64,000 nucleotides of DNA. Origin: Heterodontus francisci. Its lineage: Eukaryota. A program made the position numbers and the translations under genes. The notes under the pieces are model-generated. The model made no database searches. It was given only the letters and a program-made list of their open reading frames with translations, and was not told the origin of the DNA. Positions 1,183 to 62,032 of this stretch are shown here, in pieces (positions within the stretch are counted from its first letter, which is position 1; the number at the start of each line of letters is the position of its first letter). The stretch spans positions 2,418,001 through 2,482,000 of the forward strand of contig NC_090399.1 in NCBI RefSeq assembly GCF_036365525.1, written 5' to 3'.

Positions 1183-1284
1183 CTTTCTCAATGAATAACC
1201 AGTGGAGCAGTTTCAATATCCCGTACAGAACAAAAGCACAAATAAACATCCCAATGGCATCTTCAATGGAAGGACCGGCAGCTC
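1183..1284 (-). CDS. TAPBP: Tapasin-family exon 6 (connecting peptide plus transmembrane helix)
   Basis: 102 nt, phase 1-1; GAAGPSIEDAIGMFICAFVLYGILKLLHWLFIEK with the intramembrane Lys typical of tapasin. Confidence 0.9.
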
Positions 1285-4200
1285 CTGCATGGAGATCAAG
1301 AGAAATGCTGTTAATTACCTCTTGGTACCATTGCTCCTGCTAACAGTCAGATCCTAATCATGTACCTTTCCCTGTGTGAACCCTCCTCAGTCCAGAACCC
1401 AATGTACAATCTCACCGTGAGGATCAGGATCCCCTTCAAAGGTCAGATGTTTGTGAGGGCATCGGCCTCAAAATCAGCAAGATGTTCACTTGTTGTAAAG
1501 TTACACACCCAGCTTGGGACAGTCTGCCTGTTAATGGTAGTGGATGAAGAAACTCTGGCTGTGGGCGTGGGGAACCTGTGCTTGTCCGTGACTCAGGAGT
1601 ACCGAGGTGGAATTGGCTCCCCTCCGACACCAGCCCAATGTGGACAATTCAGGCCAAGTTTCAGTCTTTCCCCATCCGATGGAAAAGGTCGCCTGTTCTT
1701 TACAGAACCAGCTGCTTTTTAATGGAATGCAGATTGAGCCAGTTCATCCTCCCTACCAGGTAAAGACCAAAACCTGCCTCGTCAGTCAGCTCCCGCCAAT
1801 TGTCCAGTTATCCATTTAAGGCAGGGACGAGCAGATGGGGAGCCAGTCAAGATTCTGCATCCTCTCTGACACCAGAACAAAGGCAGTTTGAGAGAATGGG
1901 GCATTCACAATGGGTCATTAATATTAAATACATTGGAAGTCTGCTTTTCACAGGCTTATGAAGGAAGCTCTCAGACTAACCGTTATCTAACCGTGATCCA
2001 GAATATTCCTTTCAAACCCCAAAGTGTTCAGAAATAACCGCACCCCCCCCCCCGCCCCCACAAAAAAACAGTTAATTGTAATTCTCCCTCTAAAAGGTCG
2101 CTTTGAATTGGTGACTCATCAACAACAACAACTTGAATTTGTAGGGGGAAAAATTGTGGCCGATGCAGCTAAATAAATATACACGTATATACAAGATGAA
2201 AGTGTGTACAAAATGGAGTATTTACCCAAGGCATTGTGGGACAAGTTAGTTAGCTTGCAGTCTTGAGCATGGTACTGCTTAGCACAGGCAATTAGGCTGA
2301 CCAAAGAGGGCCCCTCATATCAGTGCTCAAGACCGCAGACGTCTAATTGCAGACTGCACAAAACAGCTAGGAAAGCAGGCCTGACAGAGGTAGAAAGATT
2401 CATTGTGAAGACTCAAGGATAGTTGATAAGGGGGCCTGGTAAACATCCTGAGATGGTCAGGGGCGTACCACGAGCTAGCCCCACAACCACATGATACCTA
2501 ATTCGTAATTTTATTGGTAATGAATGTAATCTATGTAATCAATAACCATTATGATTGGATTGTGTTCAGCCGGGATGGGCTGAGTAACCGTATGTCCGTT
2601 GTGGATTTTCCTTTGTTCAGTGGAGAAGTGCATGGTAAGCCCAGCATCTTACTCCACACCGGTGTAAAATAAACCTTTTGACAATTGGAACAGACCTGAG
2701 CATCAAGTGGTTCATTTTAGTCAATTCCACGCTAACAAATTTCTATAGTGCTTTTATCATAGAGAAACATTTGAAGACACTCCACAAATGTGTAATCAGA
2801 CCAAAACTGACACTGGGTCAAAGAATATAGGAAATTAGGGGATGTATGGAAGCTTGGCCAAAGAGGGGGGGGGGGTTATGTGGTGAGCAGAGAGAGGGGT
2901 TTAGGGAGGGAATTTATTTTTCTATTTGTTATCCATCCCTAATTGCCCTTGGCAGGCAAAATTGTAATGGAACAATGGCCTGCCTTAAAAGAGGAGGTAA
3001 TTTGGGTACAATCAAAGTACATTCCCATGCAGGGGAAAGGTGGGACAACGAAAGAGATAGAGAGTAAGATTAAGCAGGAACAGGGTGTATAGGACACATG
3101 TCAGATTGATAATACATCCTTACCTAAGGAAGGATATACTTGCCATAGAGGGAGTGCAATGAAGGTTCACCAGACTGACCCCTGCAATGGCAGGATTGTC
3201 CTATGAGGAGAGATTGAGGAGAATGGGCCTATATTCTCCAGAGTTTAGAAGAACGAGAGGTGATCTCATTGAGGCACACAGAATTATTACAGGGCTCAAC
3301 AAGGTGGATGCTGGAAGTTTCCCCTGGCTGAGCAGTCTAGAACCATGGGACACAGTCTCAGAATAAGAGGCAGGCCATTTAGGACTGACAATAGGGAGGA
3401 ATTTCTTCACACTGAGGGTGGTGAATCTTTGGAATTCTCTACTCCAGAGGGCTGTGGATGCTCAGTCATTGAGTATATTCAAGACAGAGATCAGTAGATA
3501 TCTAGGTATTAAAGATATCAAGGGATACGGGGATAGTGCGAGAAAATGGCATTGATCAGCCATGATCTAACTGAATGGCGAAGCAGGCTCAAGGGGCCGA
3601 ATGGCCTAGTCCTGCTCCTATTTCCTATATTCCTAACTAAGTGGCTTGCTAGGCCATTTCAGAGGGCATTTATGAGTCAACCACATTGCTGTGGGTCTGG
3701 AGTCACATGTAGGCCAGACCAGGTAAGGATGGCAGATTTCCTTCCCTAAAAGGACATTAGTGAACCTGATGGGTTTTTACATCAATCGACATTGGTCACC
3801 ATTATACTAGCTTTTAATTCCAGATTTATGAATTGAATTCAAATTTCACCATCTGCCATGGTGGGATTCAAACCCATGTCCCCAGAGGATTATTCTTGGC
3901 CTCTGGATTACTACTCCAGTGACATTACCACCACACTACCGCCTCCTCCTAAATTCCAGAGTGTGGGATTGGCAGCTGAAAGCTGAAGCCAATGGTGGGG
4001 CAAAGGCATTGGGGAATGTGGGATTGGCCAGATTGGAGGAGTGCTGAGTTCTTGGAGGCTTGTAGGGCTGGGGGATGTTCCAGAGATAGGGACAATACAG
4101 TCCAGAGGGAATGCTCGTACTATACAGAGCTGGATTCTGCAATGCCACAGCTGATTGCACTGAAAAAAGCATAACTCCTTCTTTAATTCGGATGTGCGGC

Positions 4201-7200
4201 TCTCTTTGATAGTGGATCCCGGCTCAAGCCTCCCTCTTTAAACTGTTGCAGGTGAAGAACGTTGGTCACTTGAGAGGGTCATAAGCTGGTGGGGGTGGAA
4301 ACACCTCATGAGCTCTCACTCCTGGTACAGAAACTCTTAGACCAGGTATGCGCACACTGGAATATCAAAGCATGAAGGCTAGAGACCATCTGTGCACAAA
4401 CTGGTAAAATCAGTCCCCATGTCTTGAACTCAAACCCCAGGGTTTAAAGGCATCAGGGTCCGGCACTAATTCAAACAGAAACTGTATTAACTCCTGGTTT
4501 GCACTGTCTTTACCTGCCACCTTCAGGGTTATGCTCTTCCGGACTGCTGACTTGACAGACATATGGTCAACATAGCAGGTATAGATGGTGTCGTGGTCGC
4601 CCGAGGTGGGCTTGACTGTGATGTAACTCGTCATGTTGTATGTGCCATCAGGATTCCGGCGGTGGCCACTCAGACAGCTCTTGGTGATGTGACTGGCAGT
4701 GCCATTACCAGCCTTCTTCTCCATCCATGTTACGCTGACATCCAGTGGATAGTAGGAGCTGATCTCACACAAGACATTGTGTTCCTGGCCAGGCATCAGG
4801 TACAAGGGATCCGGGTCCAGTGTGAGTTTTGGCGGCTCTGCGAATGTAAATTGAAAGAAATAACAACTAGCACATGGATGTCTACCAGCCATTAACTGTG
4901 GCTCAGTGGGTGACACTCACTACCGAGTCAGACAGTTGTGGGTTTGAGCCCACTCCAGAGACTCAAGCACGATGTAACTGCAGTGTGGTGCCGAGCATGT
5001 GAATAATCAGCACCCACTGTGGAACTGTACAGCACAATCACGGGTTCAATCCCTGGTTGGCACCGAGTTACCTGCTCGAAGGGGTGGCTGCTACAATTGG
5101 CATCAGTTCTGCTGATTGTTACCTTGTGACCCTACTGTAAAGCTCATGTGTGGGAAAAATCAGGCAGGGAAGTGGTTTGAGAGAGAGATCAGAAAAACCA
5201 GGGCACCTTTCACAGCAACGCAAAAGGTCAAGGGGAGAATTTTTTTCTTTCATGGGACGTGGGCATCACTGGATGTTGCTTATCCCTAATTGCCCTTGAC
5301 AACTGAGTGGCTTACTACGCCACTCAGAGGGCAGTTATGAGTCAACTACATTGCTGTGGGTCTCGAGTCACATGTAGGCCAGACCAGGTAAGGATGGCAG
5401 ATTTCCTTCCCCAAAGAGCATCAGTCAACCTAAGCGGTTTTTACAACAATCAATACCAGTTTCACTAGCTTTCAGACTGAATTAATCGAATTTAAATTCC
5501 ACCAGCTGCCGTGGTCGGACTTGAACCCATGTCCCCAAAGCATTAGGCTGAGCCCCTAGATTACTCGTTTGGTGATATTACCACAATGCCACCATCTCCT
5601 CCTCAGACAATGAGCTCAGAATTATGAGATTTCAGGTGAAACAATTTTTATAAGTTAGCGAGTCGATCATGAGAGGGAATAAATCTAACACGATCACCAG
5701 GAGATCAAAGGAGAATTTCATTTTATACAGTGTCCGGGTAGGAAATGGAAATAGTCGATTAGAAGCAGTATGGGATGCAGAATCGAAAACTGTTTTTTAA
5801 CAGAGAAGTGGGGAGAAATGGTTAAGGGAGTATGGAGAATGGGACTGAGGCAAACACTGTACCCCACCAGAGGGTCACACCTTAAGAAAATGGGGTTAGC
5901 AGACAGACCAAAATACCACAATCACTTCTTGTGACTGTTGCTGCTTCTGTGGTTCAGAGTTGCTCTTACAAAGAGCCAGCACAGACATGATGGGCTGAAT
6001 TACCTCCATCTGTGCTGTAAACTTCTTTTGTTCTACTGCCTGTAACATATGCTCTGTCGCACTTTCCCTGTCCCACTTTTCCGACCAACCCAATCTTGTT
6101 GTTAACTGTCTATATTCATTATGAGCAATGCCATTGGGAATTCTATTATCATGTCCTATTTACAATGGAACTGTTGACTACCTGTGATCTCGAGGTCAAT
6201 GGACTGCTGAGCATGCAGGTTTGGCATGTAAATTGTACAGATGTAGCTTCCTTCATGCCTGATGTTAACATTGCGAATCAGGAGCGAGGCGTTTCCACGA
6301 CTGTGAAGCTCGTAGAAAAACATTTCGGTCCCCTCCTCCGCTGTGTCCACGCGGTCTTGCGCCCCGTGATATGCGTACACCAAGTGCCCGCTGCCCTTAA
6401 ACTGGTAGCGCCACTCTACTGCAAAGCCAGTCTGCCTGTCCATAGCAAAGCCACAGTCCAACAGGACGTCCCGCTTCAGTTCCGTCCGCACTGTTGGCGA
6501 TCGAGTGAAAACATTCAGGACAACTGCAAAAGAAAAGGTCAGACCAAGAAGCAATGAATCATGGAAAGAAAGACTCACATTTGTAAAGCATCTTCTGCAA
6601 CCCCAGGATGTCTGAAAGTGATTTACAGCCAATGAAGTACATGTAAAGTGTGTAGCATGAGATTGTGGGTTCAAGTCCCACAACCAGGCCAGAATTTTAC
6701 ACACCCCCTGGGGAAGGGGACTGGGGGTGGGGGAGGGTGCCGTTCCTGTTGCCAACCTTCCCCTGTTGCCATTTTAGCAGCAGGAGAGGTTGAAAATAGC
6801 CTGCCCGTCCCATGCCAATTGAGGCCCTGAAGTGGCCAATTAATTGTCACTTAAGAGCCTCCTCCCGCTGCTGCGGGCTCTTTGCCACCTGGGGAGGCTG
6901 CCTGGTAAAACCTGGGACACCCACCAACTCCTCCCCCGCCCCCCCCCCACCCCGTGGCACAAGCTGCCCCTGCTGAAGCACCTCCCCCCACCCTCCTAAT
7001 TGACCCCCACCCCCCCTCGCCAGGGACCAGCCAATTTTTCACTCACCTTTCGGTGCTGGCACCTATGATGCAGCTCTGGGCTGGGTGCAGTCCCAGCAGT
7101 GGTTACTGCTCCCAGTGAACCCAGTTCCGAAGAAGGGTCACAGATCTGAAACGTTAACTCTGCTTCTCTCTCCACAGATGCTGCCAAACCTGCTGAGTAT

Positions 7201-10200
7201 TTCCAGCATTTCTTGTTTTTATCCCTAACTATTCTAAATCCATTTTACAGCACTTGGTCTGTAGCCTTGTATGTTATGGCATTTCAAGTGCTCATCTAAA
7301 TACTTCTTAAATGTTGTGAGGGCTCCTGCCTCTACCATCTCTTCAGTTTCTTCCTACCTACTCTGTCAAAACTCCCCTTAACACCTATGTCTTCACAAAT
7401 GAAGAGAGGGCATCACACAGCATCAGATTATATCGGAATATAGAAATTCCTAGGTGATAAAAGGCCTGGTAGTCACATGTTACAATGGGAATGGCTTTCT
7501 TGGCTAATCAGAGCATTCAATCCCTTTATCAATGAGTCTGTAACAGACCCAGACACGAGGCGAGGAAAACCCCCATTGGTGGAGTGCTTTGGGAACCAAC
7601 TGTCCAAAGTCACCCATTCCTCCTTTACAATGTACGCTGAGTCAGAACAGGATACTACATGAAGTTGGAGCAGGTTGGATACTGGAGGCTCAGTCAGTGG
7701 GAGCCCTCTTGTCAATGATACCTGATGTCTGACGGGGGGAGGTGTCCTCTGCTCTGCTGTGGCCAGAGATGACCCGATGGAGACTGGCCACACTGAACGA
7801 GTGATCAAATGTCTGGAGGTGGCTGCAGAACCAGGTGCTCGAGTCATAGGCAGGAGTCCTTTCATCCTCGGTCAGGTGCGTGGCCCAGTTTAAATTGGTC
7901 TCTTGGGGTAAATACTTATTAATCTCACAGTGTGGCTTCTCACTCGGATTTTTGGGCTTTTTGAAACCGGGGTGAGTGGTAATTCTTGAATCGTCTGTTT
8001 TTTTAAAAAAAAAAGAAGAGGGAATCAAGCACATGAAATAACTGAGAGATTTTGGTCAATCGTTTGTCTGTTACAGTTCACATTAACGTCAGACACTGCC
8101 ATCTATTAGAACACTGCCCTTTCACCTCAAGGACCCTGTCACTGATCGAGCTCAGTCGGATAGCAAAGAAGCCTTGTGCTTTCGGTTATAAGAGCTCTTT
8201 ATGTGAGATACATTGGAACAGTTTCTAATTAGCCCAACATGCTAGAGTTAGCCTGTAGCACCAACATGCAGTAATTTATAAATTCCACTGAGAGGAGCAG
8301 TCAGGGTGGAGATGGGAGTGTCGCAGCATAGCATGTAATTAGGGGAGAAAAATATGTTAGAACAGGAACAATCCGACAAGGCCAACCCTTCTGTGGAAGG
8401 AATGCAAATGGGATGATAAAGAAGTAATAATTTTTCAGTTAGACAGAGGGCCTTTGTTACTCCATTAACATTAACCACGTGAGGCTGTTTGCTCTGCAAC
8501 TTTCCTTTGATATAATGATTGAATTGGCGGTTGTTTAAGAGTCACATGGTATGTAGTTTAAGGTTTTAAACAGGGAGGCAGTGAGCAGCCTAGTGCACAC
8601 TGGGACAACAGGGCTTAAAGCTGGTGACAAGGTCAGGCACGTCCCAGATTTGATCAGTGGTCAGCACCGCAGCCTCACAGCTCTAGCGACCCGGGTTCAA
8701 TTCTGGGTCCTGCCTGTGTGGAGTTTGCAAGTTCTCCCTGTGTCTGCGTGGGTTTTCTCCGGGTGCTCCGGTTTCCTCCCACATGCCAAAAGACTTGCAG
8801 GTTGATAGGTTAATTGGCCATTATAAATTGTCCCTAGTATAGGTAGGTGGTAGGGAAATATAGGGACAGGTGGGGATGTGGTAGGAATATGGGATTAGTG
8901 TAGGATTAGTATAAATGGGTGGTTGATGGTCGGTACAGACTCGGTGGGCCGAAGGGCCTGTTTCGGTGCTGTATCTCTAAACTAAACTAAAACTAAACTA
9001 AACTTGCTTAGTCCATGGACACTGTTTGTGAGATAGAAACCTGAAGGTACAATTGTAATATTGCACAATTACTTTGTTCAATCTCTTACGCATAATAAAT
9101 ACTTTGTATACATTCAGCGTGTTAGAGTCTGCGGTCTTACCTCTCACATCAAAGAACATGCTTGGCTTGAGGTTGGAAGGAATGGCCAGATCCGAGGGTA
9201 ACTCTTTCTCCCCTCCATTTTGATACGGGACTTGGCGAAACAGCAGCAGAGCTTGATCCTGGGTAATGGAATTGGGGAAACTGCTTTTTCCACCACCCTC
9301 CTCCACAAACCAGCAGTCCACCACCGTGCCAATGTCCGACAAACCATCGAGACTTACCACTGTAGCGAGAAAGAGCTTTATTGTGACATTTGTCAACACA
9401 GTGAACTGGATGACAAGCATCTCTGCACAAATTCTAATCCTGACTTGATATCATTCCCTTGGAATTCTCATCTCCAAATTTCACATTAAGCTCATTGTGG
9501 TGCTTCCTCCCTATTGCCAGTGACGGGAGCCTTCCCAGTGCCATCCAGTTACAATTTGCACAAATATATTAAACTTCTGATGTCCATTTCCTGTCAGCAT
9601 TTAACCTTGTAAATTGCTTACCCATATTTATAATGGGAATTCTCTATGTAAACATGTCACGCTGTAAGTACACCCTCCCAGTAAGGGTGCTATACCATCA
9701 CCACTGCCGGGATGGTGTCATTACAGTCTGATATACTGAACACATTCCGCACTGTGTGCAACACCATAGGAGGTCGACTATTGGGCATGTTTTTTATTTG
9801 AATGCAGCCAGTAGATACCAAAACCACCTATAGCAAAAACTATGCACATCAAGCTATTGATTTCCATTGCTTATATCAGTAGAGTCCACTGCAAGGGGAG
9901 TGGGGGTTCCGGGAGTGTTTTAGCATTTACAGGGAGTCCTTGGGGAATGTGCCAGTATTCACAGGGGAAGTTCTGGCAGTGTGTTAGTATTTACAGGGGG
10001 TCCCCAGGGAGTGTGTCAATATTTACAGGGGGGGGCGGGGGTTACGGGAGCGTGTCAGTAGTTACATGGGTGGTGGGGGTGTTCCTAGGAGTGTGTCTGT
10101 ATTTACGGGGGGGGTCGTGGCAGGGATGGAGGGGAGAGCTCCAGGCAGGGTGTCAGTATTTACATGGGTGGTGGGGGTGTTCCTAGGAGTGTGTCTGTAT

Positions 10201-13200
10201 TTACGGGGGGGGTCGTGGCAGGGATGGAGGGGAGAGCTCCAGGCAGGGTGTCAGTATTTACATGGGTGGTGGGGGTGTTCCTAGGAGTGCGTCTGTATTT
10301 ACGGGGGGGGGGGGGGGGGGCGGGTCATGGCAGGGATGGAGGGGAGAGCTCCAGGCAGGGTGTCAGTATTTACATGGGTGGTCCTGGCAGTGTAGCGGCA
10401 TTTACAGGGGTCCCTGGCAGTATGTCAGTATTTACGTGGGGTGGGGGGGCGGTGCCCAAGAGTGTGTCAGTATTTGCAGGGGATCCCCAGGAGAGTGTCA
10501 GTATTTATAGGGGGTCCCGGGCCGTGCGTCAGTATTTACAGGGGGTGTCCTTGGGCATGTGTTAATATTTACCGAGGGTTCTTGCGAGTGTGTCAGTATT
10601 TATACACTATTTCTTGGTATTTACAAAAATCAGCTTTTCACCATGCCTTTTTTAAAATATTACTTCGAGGTTTGAGCATAATGGAGCTGAAATTGTTTTT
10701 GATGCAGTTGGAGAGCTGAAAGTGAAGGTGTCTGTTGAATAGTCCACCCTCAAGCTTCTTCATACCTTTGGCTGCTTTGTCACCTTCTAGAATCTATGGA
10801 CACTCATTTTTATAATGTGATTCCACATCTGGAACTTGCAGGAAATGTTAGTGAGCTTGGTCTTCAAGGATGTAACGTGAAATACGAGGGTTGCGATTAT
10901 TGTGCGACTGAACTGGTGTATTGCTTCTGGGAAAAAGCATATAAATTTGTCACTGGACAAGACTGCGGTCAGGCCTCAGTTAGAATACTGATCCCGTTTT
11001 AACCTCCTCACATAGTGAGGATTTGGAAAAAAAAAATTTATTTCCAAAATATACTTTATTCATAAAAATCTATAGAAAAAAAAATACATGACAAAACAGT
11101 TCTAAACAGCACCAAGTCAAAAATTACAAACAGTGCAAAGGAGGTCAGTTTCCTTCAATACAATCATGAGTTGCTTCACAACCCTTCCATTTCATTTTTC
11201 ATGCCATATACATTTTACAGCAAACGAAAATTTTCCCGATACTGCCTGAGGGGTTTCCCATGGATCCAGCCCCTCAGTTCAGCTTGGTGGGGGGACCTTA
11301 CACTGTGGTCTTTCCCCCATTGAGCCTTTGCTGCGGCTGCCCCAAGCTTTAGTGCATCCCTCAGCACGTAGTCCTGGACCTTGGAATGTGCCAGTCTGCA
11401 ACATTTGGTCGTGGACAACTCTTTGCGCTGGAAGACCAGCAAGTTCCGGGCAGACCAAAGGGCGTCTTTCACCGAATTGATATTCCTCCAGCAGCAGTTG
11501 ATGTTTGTCTCGGTGTGCATCCCTGGGAACAGCCCGTAGAGCACAGACTGCTGTGTTACAGAGCTGCTTGGGATGAACCTTGACAAAAACCACTGCATCT
11601 CTTTCCACACCTGCTTTGCAAAGACACATTCCAGAAGGAGGTGGGCGACCATCTCTTCCCCACCACAGCCCCCGCGGGGGCATTGTGCGGAGGGGGTGAG
11701 ACTTCGGGCAGGAAGGATCTGACGGGGAGGGCTCTTCTCACCACCAGCCAAGCTACATCTTGGTGCTTGTTTGAAAGTTCTGGTGATGAGGCATTCCGCC
11801 AAATGACTTTGGCGGTCTGCTCGGGGAACCATCCGACAGGATCCACCGTCTCCTTTTCCCGTAGGGCCTTGAGGACATTCTGTGCAGACCACTGCCTGAT
11901 GGATCGGTGGTCAAAGGCATTTTTCCACAGAAACTGTTCGACGAAGGATAGGTGGTACGGCACGGTCCAACTGCATGGAGCGTTCCACGGCAATGTGACC
12001 AGGCCCATCCTTCGCAACACCGGGGACAGATAGAACCTCAGCACGTAGTGACACTTGCCGTTTGCGTACTGGAGGTCGAAACACAGCTTGATGCAGCCAC
12101 ACCCGAAGGTAGTCATCAGGATGAGGGCCACGTTGGGTACATTTTTCCTGCCCTTATCCAGAGGTTTGAACATCGTGACATGGTGCAGAGCAGCATCATA
12201 GATTAATTCCCAGTTTAAGTCATCTTAGTTATCAAGATAGGCTAATAGTGCTGGGATTCTACTCTTTACAGTAGTGTAGACTATGAGGGTGTTTTGAATG
12301 AGGTTGATAAGATAATGAAAGGAATAGATTGTGTTTCATTTGACAGTTTGTTCCAATTTAATAGTTTCAGGGTCACAATTTTAACTTGTAGATAAGACCA
12401 GGTTGCTCTCAACCTCCCCCTTAATTGTCTGTGTGAGGCACTCCTTTAAACTCACCCTCCCCTTTTAATAGTCTGTGTCAGGCACTCCTTTAAACTCACT
12501 CCCTCCTTTAAGTGTATTGCTGCTAGTTACAGTTCCTGTGAAGTGTTTCACTCACCTTTTGGCTGTGTTATGGAATGGGTTCTTTCCACAATTTGCCTGC
12601 TGATGTATTTTGTTGTAGTATTTGTGTAATTGCACCTCATGACACTGTAAAACAGCTCCTGCCAAACACTTTGCAGCATTTCGCTTGCACGCAGTGTGCA
12701 CATGGCAGGGTATGAACCACAGACTGACAATATATGGGTCCCTGCCTCTCTCGCTCTCCGCTCTATCACAACTTCAATAACCCTGCGGATAAGCTACTCA
12801 CAGTATTAGGCTGAATGTATTTTTAAACCAGGATTTACTCCCTTTCTCTGGGGGTGGCTGCAATACAAAGCTGAGAAAGTGATTCTTGTTGTACAGAGCC
12901 CTGCTTAGACCCCATCCATAGTAACTGCAATCAGTTCTGGGCACCGCACCTCACGATGGGTATACTTGATTTGGAGGGGATGTTCACCAGAATGATACCC
13001 TGGCTCAGTGGGTTAAATTATGAGGACAGGTTGCTTAGACAAGGTTTGTATTCCCTTGTGTATGGAAGATTATTGGGTGCTATACTTAAGGTTTTGATGA
13101 ATCCAGAACATGGAGGTACAATCTCCAAATTAGAGCCAGGCCGTTCAGGAGTGTAAGATTATTAGATTACTAGAAAGTTACTAACCAGAACACTAATTGT

Positions 13201-16200
13201 TAAAATCTAGCTATTCAAAACTAACAAATGGCTTATCATAAACTAACATTTAGCTTTATTCGAACCATTCTTTTTCGTATGATAAGCAAAAAAACCTAGG
13301 AAATAGGGCCTAGTATAGACAAAATGTCAGGCTGGAGGAATTCTGGGAGATTATGTCAAGTGTTAAAATGCTTACTTGCAGTAAAAGCGTGAGACCTTGA
13401 GAGCAGACAGTGAAAACAGTTTCTGTACGAACAAAATGTAGATTTGTGTCGTAACGAGATAAGGGACCACGAAATGTAAAAGCATCGAGATAAAGTCAAC
13501 AAAAAGGGTATTACCTATGTAAATCAAAAAAGTTAGCAACAGCCAAAGAATGATCCTTGATTGGTTAAGAAAGCTATCCTTTGAACACAAAGCTAAAGAT
13601 GATTGGGGGTAGGAAGGGTTAATTAGAAAGCAGCCAAGATAAAGGAAGCCTTGACTTTGTCCTGTACGGCAGAGAATTTTCAAACAAGAAACGAGAGAGT
13701 GAGACACACCCACATTAAAAAAAAACTTAAAGACCAGAAGCTGCAGGAAAAAAAAAAGTTGGGCACTCTGCCATGCAGTCTCTAATATAGGTAGTATCTG
13801 TATTAGACTGTTAATCACTGCCTGAGTTTGTAACTATGGCGTTTGGTATACAAATGCAATACTGTACCAATGTGCCTCCTGGCTTGTCGTAGTCATGTGA
13901 CCTCTACCATGAGGCACTCTGACTGGAGGCAGCCATAGATAAGCAGTTTCAACAAAGACAGAGTATACAGCAGACCCTTAAAGGAACAAAGAAATAGCTG
14001 AAAGCACAGTGTAAGACAATGGCTGCAAATTTTCCTCTGCCTGCGCCGGTCGAAATGAAAGGTAATATGAATCAGATCTGGCAGTTTTTCCTTTAGCAAT
14101 GGCAAAATTATGAAATTGCGACAGATTTAATTAAGAAACCAGAGCAGCTGTGAGTAGCTACACTTTTATAACTGTTGGGGAGAGATTGTTACAAAGTATA
14201 TTCCACCCTAAATCAAAAAAAAAAGGACAGCAGAAGTCTTGAAAGCCTTGAAGGCAGGCTTTGAACCCAAAGTGAATGTAACCTATGAACGGTATGTGTT
14301 CAATATTAGGGGCCCAAGGTGAAAAAGAGTCCATTGATCAATATGTGACTGCATTAACACAGCTCACAGAATCCTGTGAATCTGCACAACTAAAAGTAGA
14401 TCAAAATAAAGACAGGACTGTATTAGGCATAAGAGATCCTGCAGTAAGAGCACTTAGAACATAGAACATAGAACAGTACAGCACAGTACAGGCCCTTCGG
14501 CCCACGATGTTGTGCCGAACCTTTAACCTTTAACTAAGATCTAAGTAACTACCTACCCTTCATTCTACTATCATCCATGTACCTATCCAAGAGTCTCTTA
14601 AATGCCCCTAATGTACCTGCTTCTACTACCACCGCTGGCAGTGCATTCCACGCACCCACCACTCTCTGTGTAAAGAACCTACCCCTGACATCTCCCCGAA
14701 ACCTTCCTCCAATCACCTTAAAATTATGCCCCCTGGTGATAGCCCTTTCCGCCCTGGGAAAAAGTCTCTGACTATCCACTCTATCTGTGCCTCTCATCAT
14801 CTTGTACCCCTCTATCAAGTCACCTCGCAACCTTCTTCGCTCCAATGAGAAAAGCCCTAGCTCCCTCAATCTTTCTTCGTAGGGCATGCCCTCCAGTCCA
14901 GGCAGCATCCTGGTAAATCTCCTCTGCACCCTCTCGAAAGCTTCCACATCCTTCCTATAATGAGGTGACCAGAACTGAACACAATATTCCAAGTGTGGTC
15001 TAACCAGGGTTTTATAGAGCTGCAGCATAACCTCGCGGCTCTTAAACTCAATCCCCCTGTTAATGAAAGCCAACACACCATACGCCTTCTTAACAACCCT
15101 ATCAACTTGGGTGGCAACTTTGAGCGATCTATGGACATGGACCCCAAGATCCCTCTGTTCCTCCACACTACCAAGAATCCTGTCTTTAAGCCTGTATTCC
15201 GCATTCAAATTCGACCTTCCAAAATGAATCACTTCACACTTTTCCAGGTTGAACTCCATCTGCCACTTCTCAGCCCAGCTCTGCATCCTGTCAATGTCCC
15301 GTTGCAACCTACAACAGCCTTCCACACTATCCCCAACTCCAGCAACCTTTGTGTCATCGGCAAACTTGCTAACCCAGCCTTCCACTTCCTCATCCAAGTC
15401 ATTTATAAAAATCACAAAGAGCAGAGGTCCCAGAACAGATCCTTGTGGAACACCACTGGTCACCGAGCTCCATGCTGAATACTTTCCATCTACTACCACC
15501 CTCTGTCTTCTATGGGCCAGCCAATTTTGTATCCAGACAGCCAACTTTCCCTGTTTCGCATGCCTCCTTACTTTCTGAATGAGCCTACCATGGGGAACCT
15601 TATCAAACGCCTTGCTAAAATCCATATACACCACATCCACTGCTCTTCCTTCATCAATGTGTTTTGTCACATCTTCAAAGAATTCAATAAGGTTTGTGAG
15701 GCATGACCTGCCCCTCAAAGCCATGCTGACTGTCTCTAATCAAACCATGCTTTTCCAAGTAATCATAAATCCTGTCTCTCAGAATCCTCTCCAATAATTT
15801 TCCCACTACCGACGTAAGACTGACTGGTCTATAATTCCCAGGGTTATCCCTATTCCCTTTCTTGAACAAGGGAATAACATTTGCCACCCTCCAATCATCC
15901 GGTACGACTCCAGTGGACAGTGAAGACGCAAAGATCATCGCCAACGGCACAGCAATCTCTTCCCTCGCTTCCCGTAATATCCTTGGGTATATCCCGTCTG
16001 GCCCCGGGGACTTATCTGTCCTCGTATCATTCAAAATTTCCAACACATCCTCCCTCTTAACCTCAACCTGTTCGAGCATATCAGCCTGTTCCACACTGTC
16101 CTCACAAACGACCAGGTCTCTCTCACTAGTGAATACTGAAGCAAAGTATTCATTTCGGACCTCCCCTACCTCCTCCGACTCCAGGCACAAGTTCCCTCCA

Positions 16201-19200
16201 CTATCCCTGATCGGCCCTACCCTCACTCTGGCCATCCTCTTGTTCCTCACATAAGTGTAGGACGCCTTAGGATTTTCCTTAATCCTACCCGCCAAGACTT
16301 TTTCATGTCCCCTTCTAGCTCTTCTAAGTCCATTCTTCAGTTCCTTCCTGGCTACCTTGTAACCCTCTAGAGCCCTGTCTGATCCTTGCTTCCTCAACTC
16401 AGCACTTCTAATGAGAGAGGAAAAACTGACTCTCAGGAAAGAGATCGACGTGTGCAGAAAAGCTGAGTTGTAAATCAGCAGCTACAGCATATTCATGGCT
16501 GAACAGACCAGGCCTTGCATTATGCTGACAGACATTCCAGACTGAAAGGGCAGAAAGATAACAAAGGGCAGGACATCACGCACAGGAAAAGAAAGCATAT
16601 CCAGCGTGGGGAGAGCAGTCTTCTCACTGTAAGAAGCGGAATCATTTTGCACGCAAGAGCTCGGTTAGAAGGAAGCACAACAAGAAAGTACAGATGGCCA
16701 CTGGAGAGACATCAGCCGAAGATTCTGACAGGTTGATCAGCCGACAGGTTGGTTCAGACAGGTTTGTGACTGTTGGAATGATGACTGCAAAAGGAGAACA
16801 TCAAGTCAACATAAAGTGACAGATAGACACCGATGCATCATACAACATCATGACCTTCACAGACCTGTGCAAAGTGGCTCAACGTGGCGATCCAAAAATG
16901 AAGCCCTCAAAAATAAGGTTGAGGCTATATGATGGCACCGTACTAGTGTTAAGAGGACAAGTTACTCTAAGAGCCCAGTGCAATGACGAGAACGAAGATC
17001 CGGAGTTCTAAATCATAGGTGGAAAGCAAAAGCCACTCATCGCAACAGAAGCAAATCTAAAGCTTGGACTGGTTACCCTCAACATGCAAAAAGAGAAAGC
17101 CCAGGAGATGGCCTAAAGAGCGGGCACTGGAACAAGAAGAACGCCTTTGTCAGTGGCAAGGTGACACGAGACATATAGGCACCAAGGAAGAGGGAGATCT
17201 GGCAGTCATCTGCTCAGGCGCCCCAGGTGGAGGCTTTGGGAAAGGAATGCTCGGATTCAGGAGAGCGGGCAGACAAAAATCAAGGTGAAATGGCAGAAAG
17301 CCAAATTTCATTTTGACAAAACTGCCGAAATATTGCCAGAATTGAGCAGCAGAGAGCCAGTCAGGGTACAAACCTTCAATGCGCTCAACAAGAGTCAGCC
17401 CAAGTGGTAACTTGGGACCTTCGGAAAACAGTTGTCACCCTGATCGTACACGGTGGCAGTGAAGGACCAGAGGTACCGTCACAACCGCAGGCACGTACGC
17501 ACAACTGGAGAAGCTGTTCCTTCATGGCAGGCGGCCATTCAGGAAGATGAGAACTCACCAACAGCACAGACCACAGAACAACCATCAGCCCCAGAGGTCC
17601 ACAGCACCCCAACAATGGAAATAGAGCAACAACAGCTACCAGGGCAACAAGTGAACAACACTTGTCAGAGAAGGAAAATCAACCAGATGAACAGCCAACA
17701 ACAACGTGCACCATTAAGAGACCGGCACAATTGAAAGACTGCGTGCAATGCATGTGCAGAGACTGACGAGAATGACAAACTGCTAATGCATGAAAACAGT
17801 TGTGTGCATCGTGAGTAACTTGGGCAACTCACAGTGTCAATGATAATACATGCAAGTTTTTTTTTGTTTTTTTGTATGAAAGGGGGGGGATGTTTATGAA
17901 GAGATACAGCACTGAAACAGGCCCTTCGGCCCACCGAGTCTGTGCCAACCATCCACCACCCATTTATACTAGTCCTACATTAATCCCATATTCCAATCCC
18001 CCTACCTATACTATGGGCAATTTTTTTGTGTGTGGGATAGAAATGTAATACTGTGTCAATGTGCCTCCTGGCTTGCTGTAGTCATGTGACCTCTACCATG
18101 AAGCACTCTGAGACTGCAGGCCGCTATAGACAAGCAGTTTCATTAAAGACAGACTGGTGTCCTGTGAACTCGTAACACATGGTTTATCTGAAAATTTAAT
18201 TAACTTGTCCTTACCTTTATCTCAATAAAGTCGATTCACAATATAGCTTTTGCTGCCAAGTCTTTTCCTGCCTTAGGAAGGGGCATAAACCATCCCTAGT
18301 TTATCTAATCTTACAGGAATGAAATCAGGAAGCACTTTCACTGCACAAAGGTTTGCGGAAATTTGGAATGCTCTGCCCCACAAAAGGCTGGGTGGAGCTC
18401 AGATGTAATCTTTAAGACTGGGATAGATAATTTTTTTATTAGGTAAGGGTATTAAACAGGGTTGCCAACTCTGGCTGATGAATTTATTTCTCCCTTCCAT
18501 GGCCCCGCCTGCACACTCCAACCATTGGTCACTTAACATGTCCATCTTCACAACACCCCTCATCTCATTGGACGATTCATGAACTGTCAGTCAAACTGCC
18601 TTTCTTTCACCCAACATTTTTACAATTACAAAACAAAAATGTTGAAAGTATTTTTATTTTTTTTAAATGCCTTATGTTGTTCTCCCAGCAGGGTCCAAGA
18701 GATTATTCTTTAATTCCGGGAAACTCCATGCAAACCTGGATGGTTGGCAAATCCTAGTATCAATGGATATGAAGCCAAGGCATGTAAAATGGAGTTACCA
18801 TACAGATCAGCAACGTTGTAACTGAACGACAGAACAGGCTTAAGGGGCTGAATGACCTCTTCCTGTTCCTATGCAGTGCTCACAGGATTTAAGTTAATTT
18901 AATAAATGAGCAACCAGCAGTGAAAGAGTTAGATTTCTATGCTATGTCTACAGGTTCTAAATTACAGATTAGGACATTGCCTGGAGTACACAGTCCAAGA
19001 ACATGCCATGTTACACTACACGATCAGATTACACATTCTAACTTCACCCTGTCTGAAGAATATTACCATGGAATATACAGCAGAGAAATCAGGCCATTCA
19101 GCCCAACCAGTAAGTCATCTCTGTATTTTTCAGTTGCACAACTAAAATTAACCTGCACTCTAAGGTGGTTTATTAAAACCATATCTCCACATTGTCAAGC

Positions 19201-19693
19201 ATATGCCTCGAAGGGCCAAACATGGGGAACTTCTTCAGTAAGCAGTGAGGCTCAAGCCAATTTTATTTTAAATGATTCCGAGCGTGTGGGCGTTGCTGGC
19301 AAGGCCAGTATTTGTTGCTCATCCCTGAATTACTCTCGAGAAGGTGCTGGTGAGCCGCCTTCTTGAAAGCAACTGAGTGTCTTGCTAGACATTTCAGAGG
19401 GCAGTCAAGAGTTAACCACGTCGCTGTGGGTGTTGAGTCACAGATCGGCCATGGAAGGTCGGGCAGATTTCCTTTTCTAAAGGACATTAGGGAACCAGAT
19501 GGGAGCCTAGCTTTTTATTCGAGATTTATTATATTCATTGAATTTAAATTCCCCCAGCGACACCCCATAAAGGAAGCAGCAGATTTAAGAGACTCTGACG
19601 CCCGTCTCGTCCTCGACTCATAGTAGCTGAGCGGTGCTTACCTGGGACGGAACAAATGGTGAGGATCAGCGACAGCTTGTACATACTGTCCAT
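1183..19693 (-). CDS. TAPBP: Tapasin-family gene (TAP-binding protein), spliced; exons 19642-19693, 9141-9359, 7722-7994, 6182-6523, 4514-4837, 1183-1284; 3' incomplete (tail exons outside window)
   Basis: Six exons with GT-AG boundaries, all introns phase 1, join into an open frame of 437 codons: signal peptide, DCWFVEE, PHCEINKY..W..LT, IgV (LDCGF..VEWR..GNASL..YIC), IgC1 (LCEIS.YYP..W..YTC.VDH), then TM GPSIEDAIGMF..AF.LYG.LK, which resembles tapasin GPSLEDSVGLF..AF.LLG.FK. Family is certain; TAPBP versus another paralogue needs phylogeny. Confidence 0.85.
2140..2737 (+). mobile_element. Solo LTR (598 bp)
   Basis: Begins TGT and ends ACA, flanked by 4-bp TSD AATT (2136-2139 and 2738-2741); AATAAA near the 3' end; splits a common repeat tail (caacaacttgaatt|tctatagtgctt). 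Confidence 0.75.
2945..3635 (+). mobile_element. Degenerate CR1 LINE fragments
   Basis: CR1 ORF2 C-terminal and 3' UTR sequence similar to the other copies in the window. Confidence 0.75.
3636..3945 (-). mobile_element. tRNA-headed SINE (family of the 45276-45670 copy)
   Basis: Reverse-complement match to the 45276 copy (gtagtgtggtggtaatgtcactggag..gggtttgaatcccacc). Confidence 0.7.
4514..4837 (-). CDS. TAPBP: Tapasin-family exon 5 (IgC1 domain)
   Basis: 324 nt, phase 1-1; EPPKLTL..VLCEISSYYPLDVSVTW..DGTYNMTS..YTCYVDH..ITLKVA. Confidence 0.92.
5245..5600 (-). mobile_element. tRNA-headed SINE with LINE-derived tail (family of the 45276-45670 copy)
   Basis: Same head and body; tail junction gcccttga|caactgagtggc. 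Confidence 0.75.
6182..6523 (-). CDS. TAPBP: Tapasin-family exon 4 (IgV-like domain)
   Basis: 342 nt, phase 1-1; VVLNVFTRSP..LLDCGFA..VEWRYQFKGSGHLV..GNASLLI..HEGSYICTIYMPNLHAQQSIDLEIT. Confidence 0.92.
7722..7994 (-). CDS. TAPBP: Tapasin-family exon 3 (N-terminal domain)
   Basis: 273 nt, phase 1-1; KPHCEINKYLPQETNLNWATHLT resembles tapasin APHCEMSRFVP..AKWASGLT; donor G|GTATCA. Confidence 0.9.
8655..9003 (+). mobile_element. V-SINE (HE1-like)
   Basis: tRNA-like head (GGTTCAATTC B box), V-domain gtggagtttgc..gtgggttttctccgggtgctccggtttcctccc, (ACTAA)n tail. Confidence 0.85.
9141..9359 (-). CDS. TAPBP: Tapasin-family exon 2 (N-terminal domain)
   Basis: Acceptor ctttctcgctacag, donor G|GTAAGA, 219 nt; (V)VSLDGLSDIGTVVDCWFVEEGGGKSSFPNSITQDQALLLFRQVP...FFDVR. 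Confidence 0.9.
9890..10625. repeat. G-rich minisatellite with GTGTCAGTATTTAC core, containing a ~98-bp unit repeated about three times
   Basis: Direct inspection; identical ORF segments offset by 98 bp (10066, 10164, 10262). Confidence 0.9.
11030..12175 (-). mobile_element. Tx1/L1-clade LINE 3' fragment
   Basis: ORF2 C-terminus with CPRGGCGGEE..HLLLEC zinc motif, WRNASSPELSNKHQDVAW; AATAAA-containing 3' end near 11050; frameshifted. Confidence 0.8.
13850..18179 (+). mobile_element. Degenerate, internally deleted Gypsy-like LTR retrotransposon
   Basis: Similar LTR blocks at ~13856-13960 and ~18047-18152; gag remnants (MAANFPLPAP..WQNYEIAT, NVTYERYVFN..ESIDQYVTAL); protease-like IDTDAS at ~16822; YRHNRRH at ~17474; PPT GAAAGGGGGGGGA then TGT at 17891; ends ..AACACA at 18179. 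Confidence 0.75.
14456..16400 (-). mobile_element. Young 5'-truncated CR1 LINE inserted in the Gypsy gag
   Basis: Near-intact RT ORF2 (391 aa plus 237 aa, one frameshift at ~15715; [15 protein letters not shown]), (TTCTATG)n tail, 7-bp TSD AGCACTT at 14449-14455 and 16401-16407. Confidence 0.95.
19270..19560 (-). mobile_element. SINE fragment (45276 family) with a longer LINE-derived tail
   Basis: Body matches the 45276 copy; the tail extends to ..gccgccttcttgaa before caactgagt. Confidence 0.65.
19642..19693 (-). CDS. TAPBP: Tapasin-family exon 1 (signal peptide MDSMYKLSLILTICSVP)
   Basis: ATG at 19693, hydrophobic 17 codons plus 1 nt, donor G|GTAAGC; phase 1 matches exon 2; lies just downstream of the ISRE/NF-kB motifs. 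Confidence 0.8.
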
Positions 19694-19811: not shown

Positions 19812-19829
19812 ACTTTCATTTCTGTTTCC
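19812..19829. promoter_or_regulatory. ISRE / IRF-binding element upstream of the tapasin-family ATG
   Basis: ACTTTCATTTCTGTTTCC: three TTTC (GAAA) half-sites, including a TTTCNNTTTC core at 19819-19828, about 120-135 bp upstream of the ATG. Confidence 0.7.
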
Positions 19830-20086: not shown

Positions 20087-20110
20087 GGGGACTTTCCAGC
20101 AGAATTCCCC
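20087..20110. promoter_or_regulatory. Paired NF-kB sites
   Basis: GGGGACTTTCC (20087-20097, canonical kB) followed by AGAATTCCCC (GGGGAATTCT on the minus strand, 20101-20110), about 400 bp upstream of the ATG. Confidence 0.65.
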
Positions 20111-26937: not shown

Positions 26938-29900
26938 CTGCAGAAAGGACATCGTTGGCCCCAATAAAAATAAAACAGGACAATTAGTCAACAGATAAAG
27001 TTTTCCTCCTTTCCAATTTGCTCAGCAGCTTTGTCATCAAATGTGATCAGATCACACCTTGGCTCAAGTGGGTGGAAAGAGGGATCAGTGGAATAAAACT
27101 GTTTGTGAGATGGAATTGGTGGTCCCAAGACGGGATGCAGCAACACAGGACATAAGGGCAGGGAAATACCTGTAATATAGATATGGTTCTGTTATGTTAT
27201 TGAACTAATAATTCAGGTAGAAGGTGAGTTCCAATCACACACAGGGCCTTTGAGAAAACAGTTTTTTTTTAAATTCTAGAAATAGAAAAGTTGCTGTGGG
27301 TAAAAGAGACTCTGCATCTGCGAGGATTGTCAGAAAAACCCAGTCGGTTCAGTAAAGGGTAGAAACATGCCCCGCTTTACCCAGTCTCGGCCGAAAGATG
27401 ACTTCAGTAGAGCCCCCACACATCCCCCATAATCAGCCTTGTTGGCTCTTAGTTGTCCTCTGAAGAGGCTCAGAAAGTTTTGTATTAAGCAGTTGAATGC
27501 TGATCCACACCTTCTCAGGGTAACTGCTGTGGGGCAATAAGTGCTGGCCTTGCCAGTGATGCCCCATCCTGGGAACGAATGATAAAAGGGAAGGAGTTTG
27601 ATCATAAGGAGTCTGCATCTTTGGGGTGCCTCACTGCCCCGTGTCCCGCTATGGTCACCAGTTTCCTTCGGGAGGTGAGGGGACCCCACTGTATCAGGAG
27701 GCTGTACCCCAAAGAACTTCTCAATCAGCCTGCCTGCATAATGACAGAAAGCGACATGGCCGGATTCTAGGCAAAGGGCAGGACGTTATCCTCACCCAAC
27801 AGCAGACTGCGACATCTCCAGCACCAACTTAACCCCATGTTCTTCCCAGAGATCACGGACAAACACACTCCGGGGGTGGGGGGGAGGGCGGATGGTTCAG
27901 TTCCTGTACCTCAGTGTCTCTGTGTTCCCCTACCCCGGTGTCTCTGTGTTCCCTGTACCTCGGTGTCTCTGTGTTCCCTGTACCTCAGTGTCTCTGTGTT
28001 CCCCTACCCCGGTGTCTCTGTGCTCCCTGTACCTCAGTGTCTCTGTGTTCCCTGTACCTCAGTGTCTCTGTGTTCCCCTACCCCAGTGTCTCTGTGTTCC
28101 CTGTATCCTGGTGTCTCTGTGTTCCCCTACCCCGGTGTCTCTGTGCTCCCTGTACCTCGGTGTCTCTGTGTTCCCTGTACCTCAGTGTCTCTGTGTTCCC
28201 CTACCCCGGTGTCTCTGTGTTCCCTGTACCTCAGTGTCTCTGTGTTCCCTGTACCTCGGTATCTCTGTACCCCGGTGTCTCTGTATTCCCTGTACTGCGG
28301 TATCTCTGTACCCCGGTGTCTCTGTGCTCCCATATCCTGGTGTCTCTGTGTTCCCCTACCCCAGTGTCTCTGTGTTCCCTGTATCCTGGTGTCTCTGTGT
28401 TCCCCTACCCCGGTGTCTCTGTGTTCCCTGTATCCTGGTGTCTCTGTGTTCCCCTACCCCGGTGTCTCTGTGTTCCCTGTACCCCGGTGTCTCTGTGTTC
28501 CCTGTACCCCGGTGTCTCTGTGTTCCCTATACCCCGGTGTCTCTGTGTTCCCCCATCCCGGTGTCTCTGTGTTCCCTATACCCCGGTGTCTCTATGTTCC
28601 CTGTACCCCGGTGTCTCTGCGTCGCCCCCTACCCCGGGTCTTTGCGTTGCCCCCTATCCCAGTGTCTCTGCATCGTCCCCTATCCCAGTGTCTCTGCGTC
28701 GCCCCCTACCCCGGGTCTCTGCGTCGTCCCCTACCCCAGTGTCTCTGCATCGTCCCCTATCCCAGTGTCTCTGCGTCGCCCCCTACCCCAGTGTCTCTGC
28801 ATCGTCCCCTATCCCAGTGTCTCTGCATCACCCCCTACCCCAGTGTCTCTGCATCGTCCCCTATCCCAGTGTCTCTGCGTCGCCCCCTACCCCGGGTCTT
28901 TGCGTCGCCCCCTACCCCAGTGTCTCTGCATCGTCCCCTATCCCAGTGTCTCTGCATCAACCCCTACCCCAGTGTCTCTGCATCGTCCCCTATCCCAGTG
29001 TCTCTGCATCGTCCCCTATCCCAGTGTCTCTGAGTCGCCCCCTACCCCGGGTCTCTGCGTCGCCCCCTACCCCAGTGTCTCTGCATCGTCCCCATCCCAG
29101 TGTCTCTGCATCCCCCCCTACCCCAGTGTCTCTGCATCGTCCCCTATCCCAGTGTCTCTGCGTCGCCCCCTACCCCGGTGTCTCTGCGTCACCCCCTACC
29201 CCAGTGTCTCTGCATCGTCCCCTACCCCAGTGTCTCTGCATCGTCCCCTACCCCAGTGTCTCTGCATCGTCCCCTACCCCAGTGTCTCTGCATTCCCATG
29301 CATCAGTTCACGTTCCCATGTTCTGGTTCATGTCCCCCTACCCCATGCTCAGTCTGTGTTCCCATACCCTGTCTCTGCGCCCCAGTTCTGTGTTCCCATA
29401 CCCTACTCCTGGGTTCTGTGTTCCCATACCCCTGGGTCTCTGTTCCTATACCCTGGTCTGCGTTTCCATGCCCTGGTTCGCGTTCCCATGTCCCTGTACC
29501 TCACACTCGGTCTGTGTTCCCACACCCGAGTCTATGTCCATGTGCCCTGGTTCATGTTCCCTTATCCCGTACCCCGGTTGATGCTTCCGTACCCATTGTA
29601 TTGTGCAGTGTAGAAGCGATTCTGCAGAAAGCTCTCCCTTTGGCGAAGCAGGTCCTCAAAGAGATCTTGCGCTTTTTGCCGTATATTTGTGAACCAGCCT
29701 CCAAACGACTTCACAAAAACAGTCATTGGAGGGAACTGTTTTATGAATACCTGCAATACAAAACCAAGGGTTTCCATGATGCACTGCCTATCCTGGGAAG
29801 ATGTGATTCTACGCTGTACTGTTTCTATATCATGACAGCGAAAACCTGAATCTTCACAGATACCTTACAAACACTCACTCTGTAGCCCCTACTTCGCACC

Positions 29901-58940: not shown

Positions 58941-59249
58941 AAGGAAACATCTTGGGTCAGTACAATCTGACAACTTAGATATACTGCCCTCCATTCTCAA
59001 ATCTGGGTCATTTACACATTGAGAGAAACTGCAGCATAAACAACAGCACCTGGGAGTCAGAAAATGTCAACGAATGCAATCCAGAGGATACATTTTACGC
59101 CAATTCTGAAATCCTATATCTCAACCAAATTTCCATCCATACCGTGGCATTATATCCAATTCCAGGCATTCAATGTCAGCGAGCAGGATCATGTCAGTTG
59201 AAGATAATCAGTTTAAACGACAATAAAATAGTTCCTGATATCTAACTAA

Positions 59250-62030: not shown

Positions 62031-62032
62031 TT

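What the first reader, a model, noticed from the sequence alone, without database searches (positions are those of the whole stretch)
1183..19693. Tapasin-family protein that is a mosaic of tapasin and TAPBPR features (ancestral-type or third-lineage peptide editor)
Seen, tapasin-like: CWFVE, PHCE..W..LT, TI.MP.L, LSG.R.NPDG, and a TM segment GPSIEDAIGMF with an intramembrane Lys. Seen, TAPBPR-like: LLFRQVP, a canonical IgV disulfide (LDCGF/YIC; mammalian tapasin lacks it), AQQ.I.L.I, YYPLDV.VTW, GTY..S. Established: tapasin docks on TAP through its TM helix, while TAPBPR acts outside the peptide-loading complex. Inference: this may be the basal jawed-vertebrate tapasin or a third paralogue, informative about how class I peptide editing arose. 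Some of these TAPBPR-like traits also occur in teleost tapasins, so the mosaic may simply be the ancestral state.
Basis: partly seen in the sequence, partly recalled or inferred. Interest (0 to 1): 0.7.

Follow-up and report, generated by a model that had tools for sequence, protein, structure and literature searches.

The report
Ordinary shark tapasin gene
This is a shark's ordinary, spliced and already annotated tapasin gene, whose protein likely helps load peptides onto MHC class I immune molecules; it looks like a hybrid only because mammalian tapasin has drifted, and the shark's two other tapasin-family genes lie elsewhere in its genome.

Summary
The gene is real and was read correctly: six exons in the window give 437 aa, and two more just outside complete a 454-aa protein identical to public record P0005, ending in a KxKxx motif. 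It is the TAPBP (tapasin) orthologue, not a mosaic or a third paralogue. The genome holds three family genes; this one falls with tapasins (100/100 support, and in each domain's own tree), the other two with TAPBPR and with the third lineage TAPBPL, published in 2018. It lies on the MHC chromosome beside a SOUL gene and near VPS52, like the sawfish gene labelled TAPBP in a 2023 supplement. The 'TAPBPR-like' traits are mostly old states that mammalian tapasin lost: the IgV cysteine pair is in 112 of 118 tapasins, and the 6 exceptions are mammalian-type. What remains of interest: a TAPBPR-length editing loop with Phe at TAPBPR's Leu30 position, no ERp57-linking cysteine, and a position about 63 Mb from TAP and PSMB8. 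The scan earlier noted TAPBPL and tapasin genes in other sharks and rays.

The parts
19642..19693 (-). Tapasin exon 1 (coding part): ATG and predicted signal peptide, residues 1-17
   Evidence: GT donor, phase 1; matches P0005; not covered by the read-laying run
9141..9359 (-). Exon 2: N-domain start, Cys33, editing loop with Phe45, residues 18-90
   Evidence: ungapped but weak alignment to human TAPBPR 12-55 (E 0.23-0.46); 5-residue gap in human tapasin
7722..7994 (-). Exon 3: N-domain, Cys113/Glu114 (human C71/E72), Thr137 at human Cys95, residues 91-181
   Evidence: joined to exon 4 in 4 of 4 runs
6182..6523 (-). Exon 4: IgV domain with Cys205/Cys277, E218/R220/Q222/Q287, sequon N259, residues 182-295
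   Evidence: Pfam V-set E 1e-12; spliced
4514..4837 (-). Exon 5: IgC1 domain, Cys319/Cys383, residues 296-403
   Evidence: Pfam C1-set E 4e-12; spliced
1183..1284 (-). Exon 6: connecting peptide and transmembrane helix with E411, D412, F417, F421, G425, K428, W432. Exons 7-8 (tail, KxKxx) lie 2.6 and 3.7 kb further on, outside the window
   Evidence: aligned without gaps to human tapasin 385-414; spliced to exon 5; tail exons
19814..19828 (-). ISRE-like tandem GAAA run, 121-135 bases upstream of the ATG
   Evidence: the pattern was fitted to the site after seeing it, so its chance figure is not a test; the stricter prior pattern did not match here
20088..20097 (+). Canonical NF-kB-type site about 400 bases upstream of the ATG
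   Evidence: 4 matches in the window against 0.16 expected; the other 3 lie in a tandem-repeat tract near 32 kb. Consensus recalled; function untested
14549..16481 (-). LINE reverse-transcriptase fragments in intron 1
   Evidence: Pfam RVT_1 E 1.6e-24 and 4e-4
29565..29864 (-). Open frame holding an exon of a SOUL/HEBP2-like neighbour gene, same strand, about 10 kb upstream (synteny marker, not part of tapasin)
   Evidence: Pfam SOUL 30.2 bits over cut-off 27; same order as sawfish chr34 table

Best explanation
This is the shark orthologue of tapasin (TAPBP), an intact eight-exon gene on the MHC chromosome, whose protein likely stays in the ER, likely docks on the TAP peptide transporter through its membrane helix, and is predicted to hold peptide-receptive MHC class I and exchange weak peptides for strong ones. 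Shown here: gene structure, three splice joints, orthology, chromosome position and residue conservation. Inferred from human tapasin: ER retrieval through KxKxx; TAP docking through E411/D412/F417/F421; class I binding through E114 and E218/R220/Q222/Q287; peptide release helped by a loop whose Phe45 would play the part of the leucine in human tapasin and TAPBPR. It has no cysteine at the Cys95 position, so it likely works without the covalent ERp57 link. The apparent mosaic arises because sharks kept old states (IgV disulfide, YYPLDV, long loop) that TAPBPR also kept and mammalian tapasin lost.
For: Tree of 47 proteins: TAPBP (22 rows, with the query), TAPBPR (11) and TAPBPL (14) each one side of a 100/100 branch, each with one gene of this genome. 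N, IgV and IgC trees built apart keep the query with tapasins (SH-aLRT 99, 94, 90). AU tests reject shark group + TAPBPR (p 0.006) and + TAPBPL (p 0.020). With an outgroup all 22 TAPBP rows form one clade, SH-aLRT 96. All seven TAP-facing or motif residues named in PMC12758552 (E391, D392, F397, F401, G405, K408, W412; passages) are identical. Tail KxKxx. C29 carries 61 of 64 MHC class I matches, TAP1-, TAP2- and PSMB8-like exons at 65.1-65.9 Mb, VPS52 0.4 Mb and SKIV2L 2 Mb away, a SOUL exon next door, matching the white shark and sawfish TAPBP neighbourhoods (supplement of PMC10751288). Model pLDDT 83; Foldseek ranks 1-9 are tapasin, TAPBPR starts at rank 10.
Against: No binding or editing was tested. 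On the two Ig domains alone (223 columns) an AU test does not reject putting the shark group outside all three families (p 0.27). The IgV exon alone scores higher against human TAPBPR (48 bits) than human tapasin (39 bits), and exon 2 found only TAPBPR chains at E up to 10. One motif, [RK]xV, is in 7 of 7 cartilaginous-fish TAPBP and 5 of 11 TAPBPR but 0 of 15 bony-vertebrate TAPBP. The tree inside TAPBP does not follow species order (sharks with coelacanth, lungfish, newt, caecilian; 98/86), probably from unequal rates. DAXX and WDR46 lie on other small contigs in this assembly. The shark TAP2 first exon aligns only weakly to human TAP2 (E 0.32; Arg at R80, no Asp at D16). PMC12758552 says K408 is not a direct TAP contact, so the intramembrane Lys is a family marker rather than proof of docking.
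Confidence: 0.9

Rival explanations
1. It is the third-lineage gene (TAPBPL in Grimholt's sense) or a new fourth paralogue.
For: Source label is only 'tapasin-like'; a cysteine follows the W-F motif (Cys147), recalling the extra cysteine that PMC5824609 describes for TAPBPL; far from the class I core.
Against: TAPBPL is a separate gene on C30 (P0271); AU p 0.020. Cys147 is at W+2, not W+3 as in the gar and salmon TAPBPL rows, and is in only 2 of 118 tapasins. The query has the GPSIED and membrane-Lys traits (0 and 1 of 14 TAPBPL) and lacks the KPY end (12 of 14). The IgV search found only 3 strong family matches among 14 hits in the genome.
Confidence: 0.02
2. It is a true chimera, with tapasin N-domain and membrane helix and TAPBPR-derived Ig exons or loop exon gained by exon shuffling or gene conversion.
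For: All five introns in the window are phase 1, so exon swaps would keep the frame. Mean identity of the Ig domains to TAPBPR (35, 34%) equals or exceeds that to mammalian tapasin (34, 30%).
Against: Identity to non-mammalian bony tapasins is higher in every domain (27, 51, 39, 52% against 19, 35, 34, 13% for TAPBPR); each domain tree keeps it with tapasins. Exon 2 was not given a tree of its own.
Confidence: 0.03
3. It is the tapasin orthologue by descent but works like TAPBPR, free of TAP, or can do both.
For: TAPBPR-length loop with Phe at the Leu30 position; no Cys95; not linked to TAP; weak conservation of the shark TAP2 docking domain.
Against: Complete TAP-facing helix motif and KxKxx; a dedicated TAPBPR gene exists; TAP1-like first exon has a TMD0-like stretch; trout tapasin, which has the same kind of loop, is reported to bind class I (review PMC6523485, passage).
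Confidence: 0.07

Closest known systems
Elasmobranch TAPBP as tabulated by Verissimo et al. 2023 (PMC10751288 supplement: white shark LOC121291533, sawfish LOC127585928)
   Same: Near one end of the MHC chromosome, with VPS52, SKIV2L and (sawfish) a HEBP2-like gene directly upstream on the same strand; far from TAP1/TAP2/PSMB8 (about 47-48 Mb white shark, 16 Mb sawfish, 63 Mb here). Sawfish 'tapasin-like' P0017 is in the query's clade; that P0017 is the product of that locus is inferred from species and name.
   Different: Another species; DAXX and WDR46 are not placed on C29 here. The passages of the main text found by term search do not discuss tapasin's position.
Human tapasin (TAPBP; PDB 9rcv_B, 6eny_C, 3f8u)
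   Same: Best solved-structure match, E 3e-48; C7/C71, E72, E185/R187/Q189/Q261, N233 sequon, membrane motif and K408 all matched; dilysine tail.
   Different: Shark has the IgV disulfide, a loop 5 residues longer with Phe where human has L18 in a short loop, no Cys95, Phe for H190, and lacks the mammalian IgV insertions.
TAPBPR (human gene symbol TAPBPL; PDB 5wer, 5opi; here P0287 on C1032)
   Same: Fold, IgV disulfide, loop length, YYPLDV, AQQ, GT[YF].
   Different: Query lacks the LHADC-type motif with Cys94 (11 of 11 TAPBPR), has the TAP-facing helix motif (0 of 11) and a dilysine tail (2 of 11); separate 100/100 clade.
TAPBPL, third lineage of Grimholt 2018 (PMC5824609; here P0271 on C30)
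   Same: Fold, IgV disulfide, N233-type sequon, dilysine tail.
   Different: Query has the membrane Lys and GPSIED that TAPBPL lacks, and no KPY end; separate 100/100 clade.

Membership tests
TAPBP (tapasin) | Falls in the TAPBP clade | tested here: met
   100/100; per domain 99/94/90; rooted 96
TAPBP (tapasin) | On the MHC chromosome among extended class II / class III framework genes | tested here: met
   DAXX and WDR46 on other contigs; ZBTB22 not searched
TAPBP (tapasin) | N-domain + IgV + IgC1 + membrane helix | tested here: met
TAPBP (tapasin) | TAP-facing helix motif E391, D392, F397, F401, G405, K408, W412 | tested here: met
   7 of 7 identical (residues from PMC12758552)
TAPBP (tapasin) | C-terminal dilysine ER-retrieval motif | tested here: met
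   KxKxx at the end of exon 8
TAPBP (tapasin) | Class I-binding residues E72 and E185/R187/Q189/Q261 (the four-residue TN6 set is recalled) | tested here: met
   E114, E218, R220, Q222, Q287
TAPBP (tapasin) | Cys95 link to ERp57 (a trait of mammalian tapasin, not of the whole family per PMC5824609) | tested here: not met
   Thr137; the cysteine is in 7 of 118 tapasins: one lizard, platypus and five bat-cluster rows
TAPBP (tapasin) | Binds TAP and class I and edits peptides | not testable with these tools
   needs bench work; no complex prediction was run
TAPBPR | Falls in the TAPBPR clade | tested here: not met
   AU p 0.006; P0287 fills that place
TAPBPR | LHADC-type motif with Cys94; no TAP-facing helix motif | tested here: not met
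   Cys94 position from PMC5824609 supplement
TAPBPR | VAMP1/CD27 neighbourhood | tested here: not met
   none of 10 synaptobrevin matches is on C29 (nor on C1032, so the test says nothing for P0287); CD27 not searched
TAPBPL (third lineage, Grimholt 2018) | Falls in the TAPBPL clade | tested here: not met
   AU p 0.020; P0271 fills that place
TAPBPL (third lineage, Grimholt 2018) | No membrane Lys; lineage-specific cysteine; KPY-type tail | tested here: not met

The most novel reading that the evidence does not exclude
Shark tapasin is a living model of the first peptide editor: a TAP-docked tapasin that edits with a TAPBPR-length loop and a Phe45 lever, without a covalent ERp57 partner. The short loop would then be a therian invention and Cys95 an amniote one, so the textbook loop difference between tapasin and TAPBPR would be a mammalian peculiarity; and since the gene lies tens of megabases from class Ia/TAP/PSMB8 in three elasmobranchs, it would be a generalist that cannot co-evolve with class I haplotypes as chicken tapasin does.
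Probability: 0.4. Interest if true: 0.45.

Novelty: already known. Interest (0 to 1): 0.17.

Why it matters
As a gene it is routine: annotated, with orthologues already labelled TAPBP in print. It confirms that all three tapasin-family genes were in place in cartilaginous fish. Two side results could interest MHC specialists. First, the long editing loop is the rule among tapasins (24-30 residues in 108 of 114 measurable rows), so work that swaps the 'short tapasin loop' for the 'long TAPBPR loop' (PMC7117912) describes a mammalian contrast, and shark tapasin offers a natural test protein. Second, tapasin is outside the tight class Ia region in sharks and rays, which limits the idea that tapasin was part of the ancestral co-evolving block.

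Tried and rejected
Third lineage because of Cys147: rejected. Domain chimera: rejected for N, IgV and IgC. Rooting test on Ig domains alone lacked power (p 0.27); shark group as sister to all bony tapasins is not rejected (p 0.43), which is simply the species tree. MHC class II beta search found nothing and is uninformative. Genome-wide SOUL search missed the neighbouring exon, later found by Pfam scan. Synaptobrevin search gave no link for the TAPBPR paralogue. The prior ISRE pattern did not match the promoter. No complex prediction was run: a textbook pair would pass by likeness. One feature row (L130T131) was mis-indexed and is ignored. Seven literature searches listed no paper devoted to shark tapasin's loop or position; the library lacks most subscription papers, and supplementary figures 7-8 of PMC8271027 (cross-species loop comparison) were not seen and may already cover the loop point.
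Full report
Observation. The listed motifs lie on the minus strand in six exons between 19693 and 1183, with GT-AG phase-1 introns, and give 437 aa. The window is G000:C29:2418001-2482000. Two more exons lie 2.6 and 3.7 kb past exon 6, outside the window; all eight translate to the 454-aa public protein P0005, which its source labels 'tapasin-like' from horn shark. The protein ends in KxKxx. One contig in each of 4 of 4 runs laid bridges exons 3-4-5-6 at the predicted sites; three runs of one sample have no differences from the window in these exons and a run of a second organism has 17. The runs are only guessed to be RNA, but the joints are canonical introns.

Three family genes. The IgV exon finds three strong matches among 14 in the genome: itself, C30 (46%) and C1032 (42%). 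Their full proteins are P0271 and P0287. Grimholt 2018 (PMC5824609; passages and supplement part 26) already defines three lineages, TAPBP, TAPBPR and TAPBPL, and a review repeats this (PMC9586880, passage). I chose 47 full-length proteins to span species and lineages; the many further teleost hits and partial proteins were left out. The maximum-likelihood tree has three 100/100 groups, each with one gene of this genome, and the query lies with tapasins. AU tests reject joining the seven cartilaginous-fish sequences to TAPBPR (p 0.006) or TAPBPL (p 0.020) and allow them as sister to bony tapasins (p 0.43). Trees of the N, IgV and IgC parts agree (99, 94, 90). With four unnamed V-C1 outgroup proteins all 22 TAPBP rows form a clade (96), but on those 223 columns an older position for the shark group is not rejected (p 0.27).

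Why it looks mosaic. In one search the path from the TAPBP stem is about 0.58 changes per column to the query and about 1.85 to a bat, so mammals have drifted most. Against human structures the IgV exon scores better on TAPBPR than on tapasin, while exon 3 and the whole protein score best on tapasin. Counts in the 47-row alignment (cartilaginous TAPBP 7, other non-mammalian TAPBP 13, mammalian TAPBP 2, TAPBPR 11, TAPBPL 14): IgV cysteine pair 7, 13, 0, 11, 14; GT[YF] 7, 12, 0, 11, 13; YYPLDV 7, 3, 0, 10, 11; AQQ 5, 4, 0, 8, 0; GPSIED-type 6, 12, 2, 0, 0; membrane Lys 5, 9, 2, 1, 1; LHADC-type 0, 0, 0, 11, 0. The traits called TAPBPR-like are shared across families and missing in mammalian tapasin, so they are most simply old; the traits called tapasin-like are confined to TAPBP. 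In a wider set (118 of 132 proteins kept, 400-500 aa, mostly teleosts) the cysteine pair is in 112, and the six without it are platypus and a bat cluster.

Position. C29 is the MHC chromosome: 61 of 64 class I matches lie on it, from 32 to 67 Mb; TAP1-like exons at 65.13-65.32 Mb, TAP2-like at 65.66 Mb (scoring about equally on ABCB9 and TAP2) and PSMB8-like at 65.90 Mb. Tapasin is at 2.42-2.44 Mb, about 63 Mb away, with a SOUL exon 10 kb upstream, VPS52 at 2.84 Mb and SKIV2L at 4.46 Mb. The supplement of Verissimo et al. 2023 (PMC10751288; abstract, part 1 of the results, term hits, supplement parts 7 and 16) labels as TAPBP a white shark gene at 112.5 Mb (TAP1 64.3 Mb) and a sawfish gene at 0.92 Mb (TAP1 17.2 Mb), the latter directly after a HEBP2-like gene; it lists tapbp as not found in catshark. 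DAXX and WDR46 are on contigs C645 and C2038 here.

How it likely works. Shown: residues. Inferred: function, from human tapasin. The membrane helix matches all seven residues that PMC12758552 (passages) names, including the E391/D392 pair and F397/F401 that face TAP; that paper finds K408 not to be a direct contact. E72, which PMC8271027 (passages) ties to release of the peptide's C-terminus, is E114 and is in 118 of 118 rows. E185/R187/Q189/Q261 and the N233 sequon are matched (their role is recalled, and noted in the Grimholt passages). Cys95 is Thr137. The editing loop is five residues longer than in human tapasin and aligns without gaps, though weakly, to human TAPBPR, putting Phe45 on Leu30, the 'leucine lever' of PMC6307860 (listing and passages). 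The loop spans 27 residues in the query, 25-29 in all 21 non-therian tapasins of the tree, 22 in the bat, and 27-32 in 10 of 11 TAPBPR; the lever column holds Leu or Phe in 103 of 118. The model is unsure in this loop (block pLDDT 69). PMC7117912 (passages) treats the short loop as the tapasin state; the longer fish and chicken loops are visible in Grimholt's alignment. On the partner side, the TAP1-like first exon has a TMD0-like stretch; the TAP2 one aligns too weakly to judge. A kB site and an ISRE-like run upstream suggest inducible expression, untested.

Verdict. A routine tapasin orthologue, already annotated. Earlier notes of the scan describe TAPBPL in other sharks and skates and tapasin in rays; none concerns this place. 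Interest 0.17; the loop and the position are the only points a specialist might pick up.

Noticed in passing
window 29565-29864 (-): Exon of a SOUL/HEBP2-like gene directly upstream of tapasin; other exons not mapped.
   Followed up: partly
G000:C29:65.13-65.15 Mb and 65.25-65.32 Mb (L033-L036): TAP1-like exons occur twice; the second copy is slightly different and one exon is a residue shorter in the matched stretch: duplicate, pseudogene or assembly artefact.
   Followed up: no
window 4674 (exon 5, residue 350): Cys350 is unique among 118 tapasins; run X5 of a second organism reads the base that gives Trp, as in most relatives, so it is a recent change. Cys147 is shared with one other shark only.
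   Followed up: partly
L044:5872-9659 (G000:C29 about 2.518-2.522 Mb): Endogenous retrovirus remains: reverse transcriptase, RNase H, integrase and env fragments spread over several broken frames. Observed only.
   Followed up: no
L044:1693-2565 (+): 291-aa open frame with a SCAN domain, probably a retroelement gag or SCAN zinc-finger piece.
   Followed up: no
L051:5672-5992 and C29 7.4-9.4 Mb: IgV exons, the one read resembling butyrophilin (by eye), as in the sawfish table's butyrophilin cluster.
   Followed up: no
window 9900-10700, 27700-34400, 59200-59800, 62000-63100: Long GC-skewed tandem-repeat tracts that give spurious long open frames.
   Followed up: no
P0120: A snakehead record fusing PSMB8 and tapasin, probably a gene-prediction merge of neighbours.
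   Followed up: no
G000:C29 32-67 Mb: At least 61 class I exon matches spread over 35 Mb, a large class I expansion.
   Followed up: no
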